Sequence record: NC_019399.1
Reading direction: 5' to 3' (one strand)
Source of the DNA: Escherichia phage vB_EcoM_ACG-C40
DNA: 64,000 nucleotides
Shown here: one piece after another, positions 1 to 40,787 of the stretch
How the letters are laid out: the number at the start of each line of letters is the position of its first letter
Position numbering within the stretch: position 1 is the first letter of the stretch
Notes under the pieces: generated by a model
What the model saw: the letters and a program-made list of their open reading frames with translations, nothing else
What the model was told of the DNA's origin: nothing
Databases searched by the model: none
Made by a program: the position numbers and the translations under genes

Positions 1-737
1 ACCTCCGCGCTGTTCACGGTATGGATGCTGATGCTGAACTGTCTGGCATTCTGGCTACAGAAATTATGTTGGAAATCAACCGCGAAGTTGTTGATTGGAT
101 TAACTACTCAGCTCAGGTTGGTAAATCTGGTATGACCCTGACTCCGGGTTCTAAAGCTGGTGTATTTGACTTCCAGGACCCAATCGATATTCGTGGTGCT
201 CGCTGGGCAGGTGAATCCTTTAAAGCTCTGTTGTTCCAGATTGACAAAGAAGCAGTTGAAATTGCTCGTCAGACTGGTCGCGGCGAAGGCAACTTCATTA
301 TCGCTTCCCGTAACGTAGTTAACGTTCTGGCTTCAGTTGATACCGGCATTTCTTATGCTGCACAGGGTCTGGCTACCGGCTTTAACACTGATACTACCAA
401 GTCAGTATTTGCCGGTGTTCTGGGCGGTAAATACCGTGTATATATCGACCAGTATGCTAAACAGGATTATTTCACTGTAGGTTATAAAGGTCCGAACGAA
501 ATGGATGCTGGTATTTACTATGCTCCATATGTAGCTCTGACTCCGCTGCGTGGTTCCGATCCGAAGAACTTCCAACCGGTAATGGGATTCAAAACTCGTT
601 ACGGTATCGGTATCAACCCATTTGCAGAATCCGCTGCTCAGGCTCCGGCTTCTCGCATCCAGAGCGGTATGCCTTCTATTCTGAATAGCCTTGGTAAAAA
701 CGCTTACTTCCGCCGTGTATATGTTAAAGGTATCTAA
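1..737 (+). CDS. 23: major capsid protein gp23, C-terminal part (5' end outside window)
   Basis: ORF open to window start; translation ends ...AYFRRVYVKGI, recognised as T4-type gp23 C-terminus. Confidence 0.9.
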   Translation, partial: LRAVHGMDADAELSGILATEIMLEINREVVDWINYSAQVGKSGMTLTPGSKAGVFDFQDPIDIRGARWAGESFKALLFQIDKEAVEIARQTGRGEGNFIIASRNVVNVLASVDTGISYAAQGLATGFNTDTTKSVFAGVLGGKYRVYIDQYAKQDYFTVGYKGPNEMDAGIYYAPYVALTPLRGSDPKNFQPVMGFKTRYGIGINPFAESAAQAPASRIQSGMPSILNSLGKNAYFRRVYVKGI

Positions 738-750
738 TCTTTGACGATTT

Positions 751-781
751 AAGGGACCTTCGGGTCCCTTTAGTTGTTTTT
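751..781 (+). terminator. rho-independent terminator after gene 23
   Basis: GC hairpin aagggacc-ttcg-ggtccctt followed by T-rich run. Confidence 0.7.
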
Positions 782-785
782 ATGG

Positions 786-793
786 TATAAATA
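786..793 (+). promoter_or_regulatory. T4-type late promoter (TATAAATA) for gene 24
   Basis: exact TATAAATA about 30 nt upstream of the gene 24 ATG. Confidence 0.7.
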
Positions 794-820
794 AATCATA
801 TAAACTGAAAGGAAAGCGCA

Positions 821-2104
821 ATGGCTAAAATCAACGAACTTCTGCGCGAATCAACCACAACGAATAGCAACTCAATCGGTCGCCCAAATCTCGTTGCTTT
901 GACTCGCGCTACCACTAAATTAATATATTCTGACATTGTAGCAACGCAAAGAACTAATCAACCTGTTGCTGCTTTTTATGGTATCAAATACCTTAACCCG
1001 GATAACGAATTTACATTTAAAACTGGTGCTACTTACGCTGGCGAAGCTGGGTATGTAGACCGAGAACAAATCACAGAATTAACAGAAGAGTCTAAATTAA
1101 CTCTCAATAAAGGCGATTTATTCAAATATAATAATATCGTTTATAAAGTATTAGAAGATACACCATTTGCTGATATTGAAGAAAGCGATTTAGAATTAGC
1201 TCTTCAGATTGCAATCGTTCTTTTAAAGGTTCGTCTATTTTCTGATGCTGCAGTAACAAGCAAATTTGAAAACTCTGATAGCGAAATTGCGGATGCTAGA
1301 TTCCAGATTAATAAATGGCAAACCGCAGTTAAATCTCGTAAACTTAAAACTGGCATCACAGTTGAATTAGCACAAGATTTAGAAGCAAACGGATTCGATG
1401 CTCCTAATTTCTTGGAAGATTTGCTTGCAACTGAAATGGCGGATGAAATCAATAAAGATATTCTGCAGTCTTTGATTACAGTATCAAAACGCTATAAAGT
1501 TACAGGAATTACTGATACTGGATTCATTGATTTGAGTTATGCATCTGCACCTGAAGCTGGTCGTTCATTATACCGAATGGTGTGTGAAATGGTTTCACAT
1601 ATCCAGAAAGAATCAACTTATACAGCAACGTTCTGTGTTGCTTCAGCTCGTGCCGCTGCGATTCTTGCTGCATCAGGTTGGTTAAAACATAAACCAGAAG
1701 ATGACAAATATCTTTCACAAAATGCCTACGGGTTCTTAGCTAATGGTTTACCGCTTTATTGCGATACCAACAGTCCATTAGATTATGTAATCGTTGGCGT
1801 AGTAGAAAATATTGGTGAAAAAGAAATTGTTGGATCAATTTTCTATGCTCCGTATACAGAAGGTCTTGACTTAGATGACCCTGAACATGTAGGTGCATTT
1901 AAAGTTGTTGTTGATCCAGAAAGCTTACAACCGTCTATCGGTTTATTAGTTAGATATGCTTTATCAGCAAATCCTTATACCGTAGCAAAAGATGAAAAAG
2001 AAGCAAGAGTAATTGATGGTGGAGATATGGATAAAATGGCGGGTCGTTCAGATTTGTCTGTTTTATTAGGTGTTAAGCTACCAAAAATTATCATTGATGA
2101 ATAA
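821..2104 (+). CDS. 24: head vertex protein gp24
   Basis: 427-aa ORF, gp23 paralog, position directly after gene 23. Confidence 0.9.
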   Translation: MAKINELLRESTTTNSNSIGRPNLVALTRATTKLIYSDIVATQRTNQPVAAFYGIKYLNPDNEFTFKTGATYAGEAGYVDREQITELTEESKLTLNKGDLFKYNNIVYKVLEDTPFADIEESDLELALQIAIVLLKVRLFSDAAVTSKFENSDSEIADARFQINKWQTAVKSRKLKTGITVELAQDLEANGFDAPNFLEDLLATEMADEINKDILQSLITVSKRYKVTGITDTGFIDLSYASAPEAGRSLYRMVCEMVSHIQKESTYTATFCVASARAAAILAASGWLKHKPEDDKYLSQNAYGFLANGLPLYCDTNSPLDYVIVGVVENIGEKEIVGSIFYAPYTEGLDLDDPEHVGAFKVVVDPESLQPSIGLLVRYALSANPYTVAKDEKEARVIDGGDMDKMAGRSDLSVLLGVKLPKIIIDE

Positions 2105-2107
2105 AAC

Positions 2108-2136
2108 AAAGGGACCGAAAGGTCCCTTTTTTATTT
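2108..2136. terminator. bidirectional hairpin terminator between gene 24 and rnlB
   Basis: aaagggacc-gaaa-ggtccctttttt, T/A-rich on both sides. Confidence 0.65.
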
Positions 2137-3139
2137 AACTTACCAATTCAATCCAAGCCGGACGAAGTACATCTTGTACCATTTTAACTAATTCCTTCTT
2201 AATCAAAGAAGGATTATCCGCTTGAGTTAGAGTAATACCTTCACGAGAAGTTTCTTCCAAAATATCTTGAACAGTTAGCCCCATCACCTTTCCAAAATCT
2301 TTTGGACCAATTTCACCAATTTTAGAAATAACGTTATTTACTCGGTTCAGTGTAACGTAGCAAGCTAAAATTCCCACCAATTTGTTATCAGCTTCTGATA
2401 GTTCAACTTTAGCTTTAATAGGCTTATCAGACTTTTTCTTTTCACTAAATTTGGAATTCTTGCATTTGATGGCTACACGATTTCCATTATGAAGTCAAGA
2501 AGGATAACAAGGTTTCAATACATATCCTTCAGCGGTAAATACTTCGCCTTTGGCTTCAGCTTTCCAAACACATTTGTTAGCGTCAACTAATCCAGCATGG
2601 TCTACTGTAAAATTATAATCTTGGACGACAGAATCTAAATCATTTGGCAATTTAATAAGCTCTTCAAATTTACCGCGACCTAAAAGTGGAGCCATTTTAA
2701 ATTTAAATGTATTACAAAATGATTCCATCATATAATCATCGACATAAGTCACATCACCACTTTCTGTAGTGACAATAATGTCAAATACATAAAAATCTTT
2801 ATCGCCATAATCGACATTCTTCTGAATGCCAGGTCCAGCGAATTCGCCAAAGACTTGATAAGATACAACCGCTGAGGTTTCCATAATATCTTGTACTGCT
2901 TTAATAGAATCTTCGTAATTCTTTAGAATAATTTCATACCCAAAGAAATCTTCAGCAGGAAGAATCGGTCCAGTACGTTTAGCGCAAGTTACTTTATCAC
3001 GCTCAATAATCAATGAGAAATTTGTGCCGTGAATCTTTTCACGAGCTACCCACTCCCCACCAGTCAATCCCAAGCTATAAAGTTTTTCAATAAATTTAGA
3101 GTTGTAATGATTTTCAAGACTGCTATACTTTTTAAACAT
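2135..3139 (-). pseudogene. rnlB: RNA ligase 2 (Rnl2) reading frame interrupted by in-frame TGA at codon 215 (2495..2497)
   Basis: N-terminal ORF 2495..3139 has ligase motif I EKIHGTN; frame continues in phase through *LHNGNRVAIKCKNSKF (motif V lysines) into ORF 2135..2380; total 334 codons plus stop. Confidence 0.8.
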
Positions 3140-3148
3140 AATTAATCC

Positions 3149-3427
3149 TCAAAATGTAATTTCTAACCAATCACCATCACGCTGATCACTATTGACTTTA
3201 AAGCTGAATCCTTCTTTTCTCAGCCAATCACCAATTTCTTCAGTAATCAATTTATCACGAGCAATACAATAATAACTAAAATGTGTTTTACCTTGTTCAG
3301 CTGCTTTATTAGCAAGTTCCGAAAAATCTTTAATAAAACACTCTAGCTTAAACTGTTTACTTTTAAGTGCTTTTTCGCGCAATTGATTAGCAAAAGATTC
3401 ATTTTCATAAAGATCATACTGTTCCAT
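3149..3427 (-). CDS. hypothetical protein (92 aa)
   Basis: ORF track; compact spacing downstream of rnlB. Confidence 0.55.
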   Translation of the reverse strand: MEQYDLYENESFANQLREKALKSKQFKLECFIKDFSELANKAAEQGKTHFSYYCIARDKLITEEIGDWLRKEGFSFKVNSDQRDGDWLEITF

Positions 3428-3629
3428 TTTTCACCTTTTTATTGATATGTCTTTTTCTATAGACGACTTTTTCTCGAGTTTCAAATTTATTTTTAGCAGT
3501 CATAGCTCGAGCCCATAATACAGCCACTTCTTTTGCCTGTAAGTTTAATTCACGAGCAATTTCAATGAATGACTTTCCAGACTCATGAAGAGTAAACACC
3601 ACAACCTCAGTTCTCATAATCAATCTCAT
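3414..3629 (-). CDS. hypothetical small protein with helix-turn-helix-like segment (71 aa)
   Basis: ORF track; segment ESGKSFIEIARELNLQAKEV resembles an HTH. Confidence 0.5.
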   Translation of the reverse strand: MRLIMRTEVVVFTLHESGKSFIEIARELNLQAKEVAVLWARAMTAKNKFETREKVVYRKRHINKKVKNGTV

Positions 3630-3689: not shown

Positions 3690-3717
3690 ATGAAGAAAGG
3701 GGCCGAAGCCCCTTATG
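3690..3717 (-). terminator. hairpin terminator downstream of hoc
   Basis: ggggccgaagcccc stem, T-run on - strand. Confidence 0.6.
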
Positions 3718-3730
3718 ATTATGATTATGA

Positions 3731-4862
3731 TTATGGATAGGTGTAGATGATACCAGTTTCTAAAGCAGTTTTATGAATGATGTATCCATTGCGTGATTCT
3801 TGAACATCAACTTCTGGATAGTCTTTCATCATCTTCTGAAGAGTGTAACGATGCAGGTAGTATTTACTGTCTGGATCTTCAGTTTTCCAATCTTTACCTT
3901 CTTCGGTCATTTTTTGGATTTCATCCATAACCCACCAACCGCACCAGATATAAGCTGAAGTACGATGTGGAAGAGGATGAACATAAGGTAGTTCACCTTC
4001 TGGTTCTGGAGCAACTTTATCAGTTACCTGAACTTGACCTTCTGCTGTAATAGTTTTGCTATCATAATCAGTTGCAGTAACGACAGCAGTAACTTCAATA
4101 GTTTGACTTCCAACAGATGAGGTATCGACAGTATATACGTTAGTTGACCCTTCTACAGGAGAAGAATCTTTCTTCCATGAGTAAGTAATTTGTGCTTCTT
4201 CTGGAGCACCCGTAACATTAGCCGTAAATGTAGCCGAAGCATCTTGCTGAACATTAATAGAAGGAGGAGTCAATGTAACCTGTGGATTCATTGTCTTCTT
4301 ATTAACTGTCAATGATACTTCATTAGAAGTAACTTCCTTTTCATTGTAATTTTCAGCAGTTACTTGCGCTACACACTTGATTTTTTTTAACTCCACTTGT
4401 GTCAGGAGTGTAATTGAATGTAGCGTCAGTTGCTTTGTCTACAGGAGAACCGTCAACGTGCCATTGATACGTAGGGTTTGCACCTGATGGCTGTGAAGCT
4501 AAGGCAGCGGTAAATTCAATTGGAGTTCCAATCACTCCAGCATCAGGGCTACCAGGAGTTACAGCTAAAGTAGTTGTTTGTGTCTTATTTTGAACTGTGA
4601 TAGTTGTACTAATTTCTGCTGTTTCAGGTTCAGATTCTGCAACTTGATTGGTTGCAACTACTTTAATAGTCTTTTGACCGGCAGGTCCTTTTAGTACATA
4701 ACTAAAAGTTGCTGACGTTTCTTCCTGTGGAGCGTCGTCTACAGTCCAAGCATATGTAATAGATCCATCTCCAGTTTGACCACTGGGTGTAGCAGTAAAC
4801 TGCTGAGTCTGATCTATAACTCCAGTAGGTGTTTTAGGAGTTATATCAACTGTAAAAGTCAT
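3731..4862 (-). pseudogene. hoc: head outer capsid protein Hoc, disrupted by +1 frameshift in A8 run (4381..4388)
   Basis: two overlapping ORFs (4353..4862, 3731..4396) both with Ig-like Hoc sequence; span is 376 codons + stop + 1 nt. Confidence 0.8.
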
Positions 4863-4871
4863 AAGTTATCC

Positions 4872-5552
4872 TTATTTTAATGTTACGAAAGAAGAGTTGC
4901 GTGTTTCACGAATTAAAACTGATCCGTCACGGTTAATGTAATAAATTAAGCTAAATAAAGTTTGGTGTGCTGACGCATGTTCAAAACTAGTTGGGTGAGA
5001 TTTCCAATCAGGAGTTTCAGCAATCCATTGATAAATCCACCAAGGAACAGTACAGAATCCTGGATTTTTTCCAATCAACTGAAGATTCGGGCTAAAGTTT
5101 TCCGGAAGAGTAAATACAGACGGCTTTTCAGATTCAATAATCTCAGCTACAGCCTGTTCAAATTTTTCTTCAACAAATGGAGTATCTTCAATCAAAACAT
5201 CGGTATTTTCAGGAATTTTATCTGTTTCTACTACTTCAATTTTAATGTCAGATTTAACCGGAGAATCAATCAAAAGTGCTGCTTCTGGATTGACTTCTTC
5301 ATCGTCATATTTTAACCCCTCTGCAGCATCAGCAGCATCAATTAAGTCTTTAATAGATAACCCATCAGTCTCCGGCATAGGTTCACTAGCGAGCTTCTGG
5401 AGGGCTTCTTCAATATCAACAACGATATTATCAAAAGATTTATTCTTTTTGACCTTTATACCAAACTGTTCAGCATATTCAGCTAATTTAGCTTTAGCTT
5501 CTTTGTTATCATCAAGAGCCTTCAGCTCTGCAATATAATCTTTATCTATCAT
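4872..5552 (-). CDS. inh: inhibitor of prohead protease (Inh)
   Basis: 226-aa acidic ORF adjacent to hoc, as in T4. Confidence 0.7.
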   Translation of the reverse strand: MIDKDYIAELKALDDNKEAKAKLAEYAEQFGIKVKKNKSFDNIVVDIEEALQKLASEPMPETDGLSIKDLIDAADAAEGLKYDDEEVNPEAALLIDSPVKSDIKIEVVETDKIPENTDVLIEDTPFVEEKFEQAVAEIIESEKPSVFTLPENFSPNLQLIGKNPGFCTVPWWIYQWIAETPDWKSHPTSFEHASAHQTLFSLIYYINRDGSVLIRETRNSSFVTLK

Positions 5553-17324: not shown

Positions 17325-17685
17325 CTACATTTTGAACTTTTTAGTACGCGTAATAGGCATGCGTCGATTTTATACTGTTTCATTGTTTGAAGAGCAGTAT
17401 CAAAAACAGCATTAATGACACCAATTGGATTTCCACCCAAGTTTTTAAGCTTAACTAATGATAGTTTCTCATTAACACCTATCATTACGATATGCATCAT
17501 TTTGTCGCCTGGTTTAACGTTTTATCTGTATCACCGCCAGAGGTGTATGTACAAAATCTAAATCCAGGAAGCACGCTTTCTTCGCCGGCTTGAATAGCAA
17601 AAATTTGTGGTATTTTATGCTTAGGATTTAAGTTAACAACCGGCGCCGAAGCGCCGTCAAATAATTATGTAATAAGTTCCATGAT
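17294..17685 (-). pseudogene. degenerate tandem partial copy of the alt 5' region
   Basis: - strand reads MELIT*LFDGASAPVVNLNPKHKIPQIF...FRFCTYTSGGDT then MMHIV...MKQYKIDACLLRVLKS, paralogous to Alt residues 1-120 but with stop at codon 6 and frame breaks. Confidence 0.7.
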
Positions 17686-19734
17686 TTATCCTTGAACGAA
17701 CTTGTAAGGCATGTTTGCAATATCTATGCAAGACGCAATAATTCCAAGAGATGATTCTACTTTCTGTTTAACATTTGATGAAACAAATGATGCAAAGTCA
17801 ACTCTGTCTTCTATATCACCTGTCATTGTAACCAATTCACCAGTTTCCATTAAATGGTCTCCGTCATAGATTACCGATTCGGTGAGTTCTTCTGTGGTCA
17901 TAACTTCAGCTTGAATAAGCTTGTTGTTAGTTCTAACTGTTCCATCGTTGTAAGATGCATCGGTTATTTTATTAACTTTGACCATTAATCCACGTGGCAA
18001 AATGACTTCCATTTCATTTGAAGGCGCTAAACTTCCACCGGGTAAAACAACATTAACCTTATCAGCCCCAGTAATAACCCATCCAATTCCAACTAAATTA
18101 TCGCTAGAATTTACTAGTCCTTCATCAGTTTTATCAATAGAAACACTTAGACGCTTTTCGTCTGGTAAAACACCCACAGATGAATCAGTCATCCAAGTAC
18201 CAAAAATATTTGGATATAATGATGTTGACACAAAGTTTCTAAAATAAAAAACTCGATTTTTTACCATTGCTTCGTATATTGAAGGTAACATTCGTTGTGA
18301 ACGATACAAAGTAATACCTTTTGGTAATCGTTCACCATTTTTAAAGGCTGAATCTAAATTATCAATGGCTTGTTCTATTTCAGGTGCTGTTAAAATACTT
18401 GTACGCTCATCTGGATTATATAATCCCAAAAGAGCATTATTTATGTCTACATATCCTGAACCTACGTATTCACGAATTCCGCGTTTTTGTGCTGGTGTGT
18501 ATTTAGATGAATCTTTATTTTCGACTATAGGATGTAATGACCATCCAGCGGTAAGAGCATATCCACGTAATTCTCTTCGAATAATCTTTGTTTTTATTGC
18601 ATTCCAAGAATTTTGTACTAACTCATTTGCAGCATCTTGGTTTAAATGCGAATGTCTGTTAATATTTCTTTCAAACCAAGCACCTTTATATTTTTCTAAA
18701 GTATCATCGACGATAGAAGCAATAGTTTCTAAAGTTTTTATTGAAGTAATAGATTCTTTTCGTAATTTTTCTAAAGCTTTATTTTTTATTTCTGCATTAA
18801 TAATGGATTCTTTATCTTCAGGAATTATAGAAGCTTCTCTGAATGCCATCCCAGCTGTAACACTGCTAAGAGCATTCTCTAGTGCAAATCCTGAAGTAGA
18901 AATTACCGTTAATTCATTAGAATCAGAAATTAAAGGAGCGTCCGCTGGTTTATTTAATTCTGCCGCTGAAGCCTCAAATTTTTGAAACATCGGTGTTTCA
19001 AATCTAGAAGATTCCAACGACTGACTTTGTGCAATTGCTCTACGGGAAATTTTAACTTTAACGATTACAGCTTGATCAGAACGTTTATCATTTTCTTGTG
19101 CAATAGATGCTGCAATTGCCTCATTTTTAGTTACTTGAGCTCCAGTATCTTTATTGATATAAACATCACCGACCTTCGATTCAACTTTAGTAAAGAGCTC
19201 GGTACTAATTTCCGGAACCCCTGGAATGTCTTCTAGTGATACATTTTTGCGATGTATAAGAATATATGCATACTTTTTATCATAATCCCAGAGTTCCTTA
19301 AGAAGGACGTATCTGCCACCTGAACGACTACGGATAAGTCTATCAGCAATAACTTGAATTTGTCGAGCTTGACCAGCGGTTTTAGACTTAAGAATACGGA
19401 GCATACAGGCATCAATTTTATACTGACGCATCGTTTGCATTGCAACAGTAAAAACCGAATTGATATAATTAATTGGGCTTGGACCAAGACCTTTCAATTT
19501 AGCAATTGAACCTTTAGCGGTTAATGTAAAAGGAACAATATGCATCATTTTATCGCCCATCTTTAAATCACGATTAGTATCACCTCCAGATGTATAGGTA
19601 CATAAACGAAAGCCTGGTTGTTCAATTGCGTCATCAACATGAACTGAAAAAATTTGCGGTATTTTCTTCTTTGGATTTAAGTTTGTAATCGGAAGAGTAG
19701 TATCTTCGTCAAATAATTCTGTAATTAGTTCCAT
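17686..19734 (-). CDS. alt: ADP-ribosyltransferase Alt
   Basis: 682-aa product starting MELITELFDED (second Met of track ORF), recognised. Confidence 0.9.
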   Translation of the reverse strand: MELITELFDEDTTLPITNLNPKKKIPQIFSVHVDDAIEQPGFRLCTYTSGGDTNRDLKMGDKMMHIVPFTLTAKGSIAKLKGLGPSPINYINSVFTVAMQTMRQYKIDACMLRILKSKTAGQARQIQVIADRLIRSRSGGRYVLLKELWDYDKKYAYILIHRKNVSLEDIPGVPEISTELFTKVESKVGDVYINKDTGAQVTKNEAIAASIAQENDKRSDQAVIVKVKISRRAIAQSQSLESSRFETPMFQKFEASAAELNKPADAPLISDSNELTVISTSGFALENALSSVTAGMAFREASIIPEDKESIINAEIKNKALEKLRKESITSIKTLETIASIVDDTLEKYKGAWFERNINRHSHLNQDAANELVQNSWNAIKTKIIRRELRGYALTAGWSLHPIVENKDSSKYTPAQKRGIREYVGSGYVDINNALLGLYNPDERTSILTAPEIEQAIDNLDSAFKNGERLPKGITLYRSQRMLPSIYEAMVKNRVFYFRNFVSTSLYPNIFGTWMTDSSVGVLPDEKRLSVSIDKTDEGLVNSSDNLVGIGWVITGADKVNVVLPGGSLAPSNEMEVILPRGLMVKVNKITDASYNDGTVRTNNKLIQAEVMTTEELTESVIYDGDHLMETGELVTMTGDIEDRVDFASFVSSNVKQKVESSLGIIASCIDIANMPYKFVQG

Positions 19735-22537: not shown

Positions 22538-22998
22538 AGAGAGTCTCTTAATAGGTTTAACACATCAATAAATTCAGCTTCGGTTAGTATTGTATCATCT
22601 TTTGTTAGACCACTAGCCATGCTGTGCTTCAAAACTTTTCCTTTCGAGGCTTGTAATGCATCGCGAAAGCCCTTGTTTTGAATCGCTGCTTCAAAATATG
22701 CATTTGTGTATAATTCTTTCCACGCCGGGGAGTATCTTGAAAACGGAACTCCAAGCCAGAAGAGGGTCCCACGGTCCTGAGCTCTAGCATAAGACCTTCC
22801 AGCTTGTTGAGCGGCAAGCCCGGATAACCCAAATATACGTTTTTGTTGTTCAACGTTTTTCACCTTGCATCCTTGGAGGAATCCTTCAAGACCTCCAAAT
22901 TGAATACCATCCATAACGAAAGGCCATTGGGCGAAATTACTTAATGCACATGATGGCCACCTAAAATTGCTTCTAATCTCTAACTCAGACATTTTCAA
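22534..22998 (-). CDS. hypothetical protein (154 aa)
   Basis: ORF track. Confidence 0.55.
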   Translation of the reverse strand: MKMSELEIRSNFRWPSCALSNFAQWPFVMDGIQFGGLEGFLQGCKVKNVEQQKRIFGLSGLAAQQAGRSYARAQDRGTLFWLGVPFSRYSPAWKELYTNAYFEAAIQNKGFRDALQASKGKVLKHSMASGLTKDDTILTEAEFIDVLNLLRDSL

Positions 22999-40754: not shown

Positions 40755-40787
40755 AATAAAAAAAAGGGACCTCTAGGGTCCCCAATT
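40755..40787 (-). terminator. rho-independent terminator downstream of gene 32
   Basis: - strand ggggaccc-taga-gggtcccc followed by TTTTTTTT. Confidence 0.7.

What the first reader, a model, noticed from the sequence alone, without database searches (positions are those of the whole stretch)
4353..4396. hoc is split by a +1 frameshift inside an A8 homopolymer
Both halves of Hoc are present and recognisable, but the frame shifts at the run AAAAAAAA (coding strand; + strand T8 at 4381..4388), where GVKK-IKCVAQ needs A7. The locus is exactly one nucleotide longer than 376 codons plus stop. This is either a real hoc-null allele (Hoc is dispensable), a homopolymer sequencing error, or a slippery site giving low-level full-length Hoc.
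Basis: partly seen in the sequence, partly recalled or inferred. Interest (0 to 1): 0.5.

Follow-up and report, generated by a model that had tools for sequence, protein, structure and literature searches.

The report
One-base frameshift in phage hoc gene
The capsid-decoration gene hoc of coliphage ACG-C40 is broken by one extra A in a run of A's, a split already published in 2012 that may be a real mutation or a 454 sequencing error, and the same run turns out to be broken in many other T4-like phages, including T2 and T6.

Summary
The window is the last 64 kb of Escherichia phage vB_EcoM_ACG-C40 (JN986846). Its hoc locus (3731..4862, minus strand) is 1132 nt, which is 377 codons plus one base. 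An A8 run at 4381..4388 splits it into a 169-aa and a 216-aa reading frame. Removing one A restores a 376-aa protein collinear with T4 Hoc.

The split is already annotated as two CDS. Chibeu et al. 2012 discussed it and suggested translational frameshifting. I found no support for programmed recoding: relatives read straight through with A7 or non-homopolymer codons, and there is no downstream RNA structure.

Real mutation and 454 homopolymer overcall cannot be separated from sequence alone, and I rate them about even.

The added result is that this tract is a recurrent ±1 hotspot:
- A8 occurs in four other independent phages or assemblies, including Illumina-sequenced FN, whose near-isogenic sibling F1 has A7.
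- A6 occurs in T2, UPWr_E2, CE1, 101117BS1 and two assemblies.
- T6 carries a +1 lesion in the same stretch.
- Each of the eleven single-lesion loci checked (T2 was not tested) is repaired by a one-base correction.
- This is the only coding A-run of 7 or more in 54 kb of genes that otherwise avoid such runs (0 observed, 19 expected).

The finding itself is ordinary and known. The hotspot is modestly interesting.

The parts
3731..4862 (-). Whole hoc locus (1132 nt = 376 codons + stop + 1 nt), flanked by inh (4872..5552) and 24.3 (3414..3629)
   Evidence: The repaired product matches T4 Hoc over residues 1-376. The position between inh and 24.3 is the same as in PYPS2T, teqhad and T6.
4353..4862 (-). 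N-terminal reading frame, 169 aa: 160 native residues (Ig-like domain 1 and most of domain 2) plus 9 aberrant residues NQVCSASNC. This is ACG-C40 orf177 / AFH20141.1.
   Evidence: ORF; exact match to AFH20141.1; Table S1 coordinates 107749..108258; PKD hit over residues 100-171.
4381..4388 (-). A8 homopolymer (T8 on the + strand), the site of the extra base. In intact relatives it is A7, encoding Lys159-Lys160 and the first base of Ile161.
   Evidence: Relatives with A7: teqhad, PYPS2T, HAYD20, and 96 INPHARED records with the exact 36-nt A7 allele.
4353..4355 (-). Premature TGA stop reached in the upstream frame, 9 codons after the tract
3731..4381 (-). Rest of hoc in the +1 frame (Ile161-Pro376 plus stop): the end of Ig domain 2, Ig domain 3 and the C-terminal capsid-binding domain. 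It carries no further lesion.
   Evidence: A single-base repair restores 376 aa ending ...GIIYTYP.
3731..4291 (-). C-terminal CDS as annotated in the record (orf176 / AFH20140.1, 186 aa, from Met191)
   Evidence: exact match; 107127..107687. No convincing ribosome-binding site lies upstream (read), so expression is unproven.
4391..4394 (-). GGAG, a Shine-Dalgarno-like tetramer 2 nt upstream of the run. It is simply the Gly157-Val158 codons (GGA GTT) found in nearly all relatives. It could incidentally favour a +1 slip, but there is no evidence that it does.
   Evidence: It is present in relatives that need no frameshift.

Best explanation
The split is an unprogrammed one-base expansion (A7 to A8) of the poly-A tract that encodes Lys159-Lys160 of Hoc. 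It arose by strand slippage during phage DNA replication and became fixed in the sequenced ACG-C40 stock.

As written, translation ends 9 codons after the tract. The product is a 169-aa fragment lacking Ig domain 3 and the C-terminal capsid-binding domain, so the phage would carry no capsid-bound Hoc (a hoc-off allele). Hoc is dispensable, so this costs nothing in the laboratory. Any full-length Hoc would come only from rare adventitious slippage on the A8 run.

What is shown:
- the lesion itself;
- the tract is a recurrent natural +/-1 hotspot in T-even phages;
- every single-lesion off-allele tested (eleven loci; T2 was not tested) is one base away from an intact gene.

What is inferred:
- that ACG-C40's extra A was in the phage DNA rather than added by 454 base calling, which I rate only about even (0.48 against 0.47 for the artefact);
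- that the truncated product does not bind capsids. This rests on published mapping of the capsid-binding site to the Hoc C-terminus, recalled from memory and not tested here.
For: 1. The lesion and its consequences are read directly from the sequence.

2. Real A8 alleles exist at the homologous tract in data that are not 454.
- vB_EcoM_FN (Illumina MiSeq) has A8 and a split hoc. Its sibling vB_EcoM_F1 (Illumina, 125x) has A7 and an intact hoc.
- The two records differ in length by 1 nt. Their 3,358-bp hoc region is identical except for that A. The next 50 kb differ by only 2 SNPs, both in tail-fibre genes.
- A8 also occurs in Logan ERR3531242, in Logan SRR8865578 (the same allele as ENA ERZ28496081), and in Logan SRR34396944.

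3. A6 alleles occur in UPWr_E2, CE1, 101117BS1 (PM107 and PM108 by alignment span), Logan SRR29423813, ENA ERZ15186015, and T2 in three separate records.

4. T6 carries a +1 lesion in the same 13-nt stretch in two independent sequencing projects.

5. The alleles sit on backgrounds 85-99% identical to the window. Within a single ~99% N-terminal haplotype group, A6, A7 and A8 all occur, so the events are independent.

6. In all 11 complete loci tested, one base restores a full ORF of 376, 470 or 472 aa. T2 was not included in that test.

7. hoc is also knocked out by other routes: a nonsense codon at W306 in ECML-134 and G4 to G5 in Bas39. Loss of hoc in isolates is therefore real.

8. All 88 other CDS segments in the window are intact, including 57 coding 6-mers and the only other coding 7-mer. 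The assembly is therefore not riddled with homopolymer errors.

9. Illumina read analysis shows +/-1 variants at homopolymers of 6 or more in T2, T4 and T6 at about 3e-4 per read (Gomez et al., bioRxiv 10.1101/2025.10.21.683753).
Against: - The genome was determined by 454 pyrosequencing only (195-930x). That chemistry miscalls long homopolymers, which is established knowledge. This is one of only three runs of 7 or more in the window.
- No independent copy of the ACG-C40 allele exists. The 169-aa fragment is a singleton among about 15 billion proteins.
- Among roughly 160 INPHARED records with this tract type, I saw no other A8 with the TCAAGTG flanks.
- Window-private 1-nt changes in runs of 4 or more are all 'longer' (7 to 0), which is what an overcall bias would produce. 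However, two of the seven are shared with independent genomes.
- The downstream part of hoc carries no degenerative change. That fits a very recent mutation and an artefact equally well.
Confidence: 0.48

Rival explanations
1. 454 homopolymer overcall. The phage really has A7 and an intact 376-aa hoc, and the extra A was introduced when the flow signal of a 7-base run was rounded to 8 in the consensus. The two 'Hoc' CDS in GenBank/RefSeq would then be an annotation of a sequencing error.
For: - 454 was the only platform used.
- The lesion is a single base in the longest class of homopolymer in the genome.
- Removing it gives a perfect, undamaged Hoc.
- The allele is unique to this record.
- Window-private homopolymer length changes are all in the 'longer' direction.
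- The other A8 in the window, in the gene 32 terminator, is also private to this record: relatives have A7G4 or A6G4.
Against: - At coverage of 195x or more, flow-space consensus normally-mers correctly (general knowledge).
- The only other coding 7-mer and all 57 coding 6-mers are in frame.
- The terminator difference is length-neutral (A8G3 against A7G4). That is a substitution, not an overcall.
- Two of the 'private longer' runs recur in independent genomes.
- The same A7 to A8 change is certainly real elsewhere, in the F1/FN pair, both sequenced by Illumina.
- The authors inspected the locus and kept it as sequenced.
Confidence: 0.47
2. Programmed recoding, the reading suggested in the 2012 paper. 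Under this view the A8 run is a designed +1 ribosomal frameshift or transcriptional slippage site, and the phage deliberately makes both a short and a full-length Hoc.
For: - Homopolymeric A runs permit tRNA-Lys re-pairing in the +1 frame and RNA polymerase slippage (review PMC5009743).
- A GGAG lies 2 nt upstream of the run.
- The authors raised the idea.
Against: - The site is not conserved. Intact relatives have A7, AAAACAA, AAAAGAA or AAACGT and need no shift.
- The zero-frame extension is only 9 codons, and its length differs between A8 alleles: 1 (FN, SRR34396944), 9 (ACG-C40) or 12 codons (ERR3531242, SRR8865578).
- There is no downstream RNA structure (MFE -13.5 kcal/mol against a shuffle mean of -13.6, z=0.03).
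- The A-site codon AAU is not rare, and no stop codon is adjacent.
- The review quoted describes bacterial transcriptional slippage for runs of 9 A or T; 8 is shorter than that.
- A6 alleles, which would need the opposite shift, are equally common.
Confidence: 0.03
3. An overlay rather than an exclusive rival. The tract is maintained by selection as a reversible ON/OFF switch (a contingency locus) for capsid decoration, so ACG-C40 was simply caught in the OFF phase.
For: - It is the only coding A-run of 7 or more in the window. Among 32 Lys-Lys pairs flanked by an A, AAA-AAA is used 0 times against 19 expected (p about 3e-13).
- The tract is common: 96 exact copies in INPHARED.
- Both +1 and -1 alleles recur, and all eleven single-lesion alleles tested are one step from ON.
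- The gene encodes a surface-exposed, dispensable protein that binds mucus (PMC11150434).
- Homopolymer contingency loci have been proposed for T2 and T4 agt and rIIA.
Against: - Relaxed constraint on a dispensable gene explains tolerance of the run without any benefit from switching.
- Many lineages, including T4 itself, lack the run.
- T2 has accumulated two further lesions, which is decay rather than switching.
- No reversion or fitness data exist.
Confidence: 0.2

Closest known systems
vB_EcoM_F1 (MT682712) and vB_EcoM_FN (MZ170041) sibling pair
   Same: The tract and the event are identical. F1 has GGAGTT-A7-TTAAATG and an intact 376-aa hoc. FN has A8, and its hoc is split into a 161-aa fragment and a C-terminal CDS. 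A single A is the only difference in 3.36 kb.
   Different: Both were sequenced by Illumina, so the change there is real or at least platform-independent. Their hoc N-terminal region is only about 86% identical to ACG-C40's. In FN the zero frame stops after one codon (…GVKKN*).
hoc of the classical phages T6 and T2
   Same: Both are broken in the same 13-nt stretch. T6 reads GGAGTTAAAAAGAATTAAATGC, a +1 lesion giving 161 aa plus a 221-aa frame, in AP018814 and MH550421. T2 has A6, a -1 lesion, in NC_054931, AP018813 and PV648364.
   Different: The T6 run is interrupted by a G, so it is no longer a pure homopolymer. T2 has two additional frameshifts and is a decayed pseudogene. ACG-C40 has a single lesion.
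Phage homopolymer 'contingency loci' (Gomez, Barrick and Waters 2025 preprint: agt A9 in T2, rIIA in T4)
   Same: A-runs of 6 or more in T-even coding sequence undergo +/-1 slippage at frequencies far above the base rate. This switches a non-essential gene off and on.
   Different: For agt and rIIA, reversion and a selective benefit against host defence systems (TgvAB and McrA/BC for agt, RexAB for rIIA) were measured. For hoc nothing has been measured. The preprint's tables list only 6-mers in hoc of T2, T4 and T6, not this tract.
Streisinger slippage frameshift hotspots at A-runs in T4 rII and e (established knowledge)
   Same: The same mechanism, polymerase and genus: misaligned pairing in a run of A:T pairs adds or removes one base.
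   Different: Those hotspots were defined by genetic selection in the laboratory. The hoc case is seen as fixed alleles in deposited genomes and assemblies.
Programmed +1 frameshifting (E. coli prfB) and transcriptional slippage (dnaX in Thermus, IS elements)
   Same: A shift-prone sequence, an upstream SD-like element (GGAG), and two possible products from one locus.
   Different: The hoc site is not conserved, has no slow A-site codon or stop, has no stimulatory structure, and its run is shorter than the 9 A/T described for bacterial transcriptional slippage in the review read. It does not work like these systems.

Membership tests
hoc (T4 highly immunogenic outer capsid protein gene) | End-to-end sequence homology to T4 Hoc | tested here: met
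   After removing one A, residues 1-376 align to 1-376 of PDB 5vf3_Z without gaps, E=1.9e-209.
hoc (T4 highly immunogenic outer capsid protein gene) | Ig-like / PKD domain architecture | tested here: met
   Pfam PKD over residues 100-171 and I-set over 193-277, both at or above the gathering score.
hoc (T4 highly immunogenic outer capsid protein gene) | Conserved position between inh and 24.3 on the same strand | tested here: met
   The order is the same in teqhad, T6, PYPS2T and ESh30.
hoc (T4 highly immunogenic outer capsid protein gene) | One uninterrupted reading frame that includes the C-terminal capsid-binding domain | tested here: not met
   The frame changes at 4381..4388 and a stop follows at 4353..4355. 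As deposited, the locus is a disrupted hoc.
Programmed ribosomal frameshift / transcriptional slippage site | The shift site is conserved among relatives that also require the shift | tested here: not met
   Relatives have A7 or non-homopolymer codons and one continuous ORF. A8 gave 0 hits in IMG/VR.
Programmed ribosomal frameshift / transcriptional slippage site | A stimulatory element: downstream structure, or a slow codon or stop in the A site | tested here: not met
   Folding of the 111 nt spanning and downstream of the tract gives z=0.03. The A-site codon is AAU. The upstream GGAG is merely the conserved Gly-Val codons.
Programmed ribosomal frameshift / transcriptional slippage site | A trans-frame product is detected | not testable with these tools
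   This needs mass spectrometry or RNA sequencing.
Homopolymer contingency (phase-variable) locus | A homopolymer of 6 or more inside the coding sequence of a dispensable, surface-related gene | tested here: met
   A7/A8 lies at codons 159-161 of hoc. Dispensability and mucus binding come from the literature.
Homopolymer contingency (phase-variable) locus | Independent +1 and -1 length alleles at the same tract in related genomes | tested here: met
   A8 in 5 backgrounds and A6 in at least 6 backgrounds, verified at DNA level.
Homopolymer contingency (phase-variable) locus | OFF alleles are one step from ON, with no secondary decay | tested here: met
   All 11 complete loci tested are restored by a one-base change. 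T2, which was not in that test, is the exception with three lesions.
Homopolymer contingency (phase-variable) locus | Measured high-rate reversible switching and a fitness benefit of switching | not testable with these tools
   This needs fluctuation or deep-amplicon assays and competition experiments.
454 homopolymer sequencing artefact | Pyrosequencing-only assembly and a 1-nt indel inside a long homopolymer | tested here: met
   454 at 195-930x. The A8 run is one of 3 runs of 7 or more in 64 kb.
454 homopolymer sequencing artefact | Other homopolymer frameshifts in the same assembly | tested here: not met
   88 other CDS segments (54 kb) are in frame. The authors may have hand-corrected them, so this is weak evidence.
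454 homopolymer sequencing artefact | Raw reads or an orthogonal method give a different run length | not testable with these tools
   No reads or re-sequencing are available, and the allele is a singleton.

The most novel reading that the evidence does not exclude
The Lys159-Lys160 poly-A tract of hoc may be a bona fide phase-variable switch. T4-like phages would then toggle their Ig-like capsid decoration on and off by +/-1 slippage, which changes mucus adherence and immunogenicity. ACG-C40, FN, T6, T2 and the others would be OFF-phase snapshots. This would be a contingency locus in a virion surface protein rather than in an anti-defence gene.
Probability: 0.2. Interest if true: 0.6.

Novelty: already known. 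Interest (0 to 1): 0.33.

Why it matters
For ACG-C40 itself the matter is small. The record either describes a Hoc-less phage or contains a one-base error, and the RefSeq annotation of two 'Hoc-like' CDS should be read with that in mind. It matters in practice because ACG-C40 was proposed for therapy against uropathogenic E. coli biofilms, and Hoc affects mucus adherence and immunogenicity.

The wider point is that one short A-run accounts for a large share of broken hoc genes across T-even phages, including the laboratory strains T2 and T6. It changes between near-isogenic stocks (F1 and FN).

Anyone using hoc as a display or insertion site, or comparing mucus or immune phenotypes between T4-like phages, should check this tract. 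It also offers a concrete, easily tested candidate for phase variation of a virion surface protein.

Tried and rejected
1. Exact-pattern scans of IMG/VR for the A8 and A7 alleles gave 0 and 4 hits. A degenerate pattern with a variable gap, run on IMG/VR, JGI metagenomes and GTDB genomes, returned mostly chance matches in unrelated DNA. Only 6 were hoc loci, and all had A7. These collections hold too few T4-like phages to estimate allele frequencies.

2. The Hoc-based locus search in IMG/VR gave 20 loci. One was split, elsewhere in the gene (L031), so it was not informative for the tract.

3. I used the window's other A8 run (the gene 32 terminator, 40758..40765) as a control for 454 calling. 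Relatives have A7G4 or A6G4, so the difference is a length-neutral substitution and says nothing about overcalling.

4. A three-way test of private indels against PYPS2T and ESh30 showed all 7 window-private changes in runs of 4 or more to be 'longer'. Two of them recur in independent genomes. I judged the test inconclusive.

5. The apparent second frameshift at 22554 (30.2/30.3) is the normal two-gene state, also seen in ESh30. PYPS2T is the odd one out.

6. Literature searches for T6 or T2 Hoc status, hoc frameshifts, or hoc phase variation found nothing relevant in the held library. My recollection that 1970s work showed T2 capsids lack Hoc could not be verified and is not used.

FN was reached through tblastn instead.

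8. Structure prediction, fold search and Rfam were not run, because nothing in the question depends on them.

Full report
**Identity of the window.** The 169-aa N-terminal ORF is an exact match to AFH20141.1, and only to it. The 186-aa C-terminal ORF matches AFH20140.1. Both are 'head outer capsid protein' of Escherichia phage vB_EcoM_ACG-C40, on a contig of 167,396 bp. Table S1 of the describing paper lists orf176 at 107127..107687 and orf177 at 107749..108258. That places the window at genome positions 103,397..167,396, the last 64 kb. The record itself is absent from the phage collection searched. The nearest records are about 97.6% identical (PYPS2T and its siblings, ESh30).

**The observation.** It is confirmed in every particular.
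- The minus strand reads GGA GTT AAA AAA AAT CAA GTG TGT AGC GCA AGT AAC TGC TGA, with the A8 at 4381..4388.
- The upstream frame (4353..4862) gives 160 native residues plus NQVCSASNC.
- The downstream frame is open from 4396 to 3731 and carries Ile161-Pro376.
- The locus is 1132 nt, which is 377 codons plus one base.
- Deleting one A gives a protein collinear with T4 Hoc over all 376 residues (E=1.9e-209), with PKD and Ig hits in the expected places.
- The tract lies in Ig-like domain 2, which spans Q91-P193 in a related Hoc (PMC11150434).
- The run is exceptional for this genome. Two runs of 8 are seen against 34 expected from shuffles, and there are only three runs of 7 or more in 64 kb.

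**Prior knowledge.** Chibeu et al. 2012 (PMC3347319) sequenced the phage by 454 pyrosequencing only, at 195-930x. [quoted passage not shown] The finding is therefore already published and annotated. What remained open was which of the explanations holds.

**Programmed recoding is not supported.**
- Close relatives read straight through the site with A7 (teqhad, PYPS2T, ESh30, HAYD20). Others use non-homopolymer codons: AAAACAA in GiZh-type phages, AAAAGAA, and Lys-Arg (VKR) at this position in T4.
- 96 INPHARED records carry the exact 36-nt A7 allele. In IMG/VR the A7 pattern has 4 hits and the A8 pattern has none.
- The RNA spanning and downstream of the tract folds no better than shuffles (z=0.03).
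- Restoring the frame needs a +1 or -2 ribosomal shift, or A7/A10 transcripts. There is no slow A-site codon, and the run is shorter than the 9 A/T described for bacterial transcriptional slippage in the review read (PMC5009743).
- The upstream GGAG is just the conserved Gly-Val codons.
- A trickle of adventitious rescue on an A8 run is plausible, but that is inference only.

**Is the assembly error-prone?** Proteins of PYPS2T were mapped onto the window by tblastn. All other genes are in one frame, apart from two known natural states.
- 30.2 and 30.3 are separate genes, as they are in ESh30.
- An alt paralogue survives only as a remnant.

The 88 other CDS segments contain 57 coding 6-mers and one coding 7-mer, all in frame. 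The authors 'proof-read' the sequence, so errors in essential genes may have been fixed by hand. The private-indel test and the second A8 run were inconclusive.

**The tract is a recurrent hotspot.** Searching the 169-aa fragment against 5.8 billion proteins returned a series of Hoc N-fragments that end at exactly this point. I verified them at DNA level.

| Allele | Where found |
|---|---|
| A8 (+1) | ACG-C40; Logan ERR3531242; Logan SRR8865578 (same allele as ENA ERZ28496081); Logan SRR34396944; vB_EcoM_FN |
| A6 (-1) | UPWr_E2; CE1; 101117BS1 (PM107 and PM108 by alignment span); Logan SRR29423813; ENA ERZ15186015 (coverage about 1, so weak); T2 in three records |
| Other +1 in the same 13 nt | T6, reading AAAAAGAA, in two independent projects |
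| Nearby lesion | Bas39, G4 to G5 just upstream of the homologous tract in a duplicated domain, annotated 'Hoc part 1/2' |

These alleles lie on backgrounds from 85% to 99% identical to the window. Within one ~99% haplotype group all three lengths occur, so the events are independent.

In all 11 complete loci tested, a one-base correction restores a full ORF of 376, 470 or 472 aa ending …GIIYTYP. T2 was not in that test; it has two further frameshifts.

**The F1/FN pair is the cleanest case.** Both were sequenced on Illumina MiSeq by the same laboratory.
- The records are 168,410 and 168,411 bp long.
- The 3,358-bp hoc region differs only by the extra A.
- The next 50 kb differ by two SNPs, in gp34 and gp37.

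An A7 to A8 change at this tract therefore does occur between near-isogenic stocks, independently of 454 chemistry.

**Why here?** In the other 54 kb of coding sequence, AAA makes up 77% of Lys codons.
- Lys-Lys is written AAA-AAA only 22 times, against 61 expected.
- Among the 32 Lys-Lys pairs flanked by an A, where AAA-AAA would create a run of 7 or more, it is used 0 times against 19 expected (p about 3e-13).

The genome thus purges long A-runs from its genes, and hoc is the single exception in this window. That fits relaxed constraint on a dispensable gene. It is also what a selected contingency locus would look like, of the kind recently proposed for agt and rIIA in T2 and T4 (Gomez et al.). 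Nothing here distinguishes the two readings. hoc is also lost by other routes, such as the nonsense codon at W306 in ECML-134.

**Real allele or artefact in ACG-C40?**
- Roughly 4-5% of isolates with this tract type carry a +/-1 allele. That is about 7 independent phages among roughly 160 records. About a third to a half of them are +1.
- From general experience, not measured here, a 454 consensus miscalls a given 7-mer at a rate of a few percent.

The two probabilities are of the same order. I put a real hoc-off allele at 0.48, a 454 overcall at 0.47, and designed recoding at 0.03. Only reads or re-sequencing of the stock, or a look at the virion proteins, can settle it.

**Verdict.** The feature is an ordinary homopolymer frameshift in a dispensable gene and has been described before. 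The recurrence of the same lesion across T-even phages, including T2, T6 and the F1/FN pair, is the only part that goes beyond what was known. It gives a cheap, testable candidate for phase-variable capsid decoration.

Noticed in passing
L090 (MZ170041) and L091 (MT682712), both 1..3358; L092 and L093 (50 kb each): vB_EcoM_FN and vB_EcoM_F1 are near-isogenic. Across 53 kb they differ by the hoc A7/A8 change plus two SNPs, in tail-fibre genes gp34 and gp37. FN looks like a host-adapted derivative of F1 that also lost hoc.
   Followed up: partly
L089 (T2, NC_054931 105000-106700): T2 hoc is a multi-hit pseudogene. It has A6 at the same tract plus frameshifts near codons 56-58 and about 331. RefSeq annotates two fragments of 426 and 354 nt as 'Hoc-like head decoration'.
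   Followed up: partly
L003 (ECML-134, JX128259) 539..1672: hoc is interrupted by an in-frame stop at Trp306 (…SAYI*CGWW…). This is a nonsense allele, not a frameshift.
   Followed up: yes
L086 (Bas39 FriedrichMiescher, MZ501066) 1815..1835: A five-domain Hoc is split by G4 to G5 (AGTGGGGGTTAAAAG), immediately upstream of the homologous tract in the duplicated Ig domain. The first copy keeps A7.
   Followed up: yes
window 3699..3733 (- strand): A hexanucleotide repeat (TCATAA)n lies between the hoc stop codon and the terminator hairpin GGGGCTTCGGCCCC, and its copy number varies. The window has two more units than teqhad and T6 and one more than HAYD20. It is a second slippage-prone repeat at the same gene.
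   Followed up: no
window 40758..40765 (T8 on the - strand): This is the U-tract of the gene 32 terminator. The window has A8G3 where G29 has A7G4 and G4498 has A6G4. The closing G-C pair of the stem therefore becomes G-U in the window, and the tract length is polymorphic among relatives.
   Followed up: partly
window 22546..22561: The window and ESh30 have GG here and two ORFs, corresponding to T4 30.3 and 30.2. PYPS2T has GGG and a fused 430-aa ORF. This is a natural one-base gene fusion or split polymorphism.
   Followed up: partly
window 17336..17682 (- strand): A remnant of a second alt (ADP-ribosyltransferase) paralogue: the first ~116 codons survive in two frames (T4 in the window against T5 in PYPS2T at 17524). 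PYPS2T keeps two full-length alt genes, whereas the window keeps one (17689..19734).
   Followed up: no
window, all CDS (54 kb): There is strong codon-level avoidance of long A-runs. AAA-AAA is used for 22 of 102 Lys-Lys pairs (61 expected) and for 0 of 32 pairs flanked by an A (19 expected).
   Followed up: yes
window 2127..2132: The intergenic T-run between gene 24 and rnlB is T6 in the window. It is T5 in 66 near-identical records and T6 in only one (Ec_YwIITB1). The same T5 to T6 change is listed for a T2 laboratory stock in the Gomez et al. supplement. This is another hypervariable run.
   Followed up: partly
L031 (IMGVR_UViG_2700989062_000001) 1486..2623: A more distant T4-like phage (62% Hoc identity) also has hoc split, at a different place in domain 2 (…EGQTS* then AKTITV…).
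   Followed up: no
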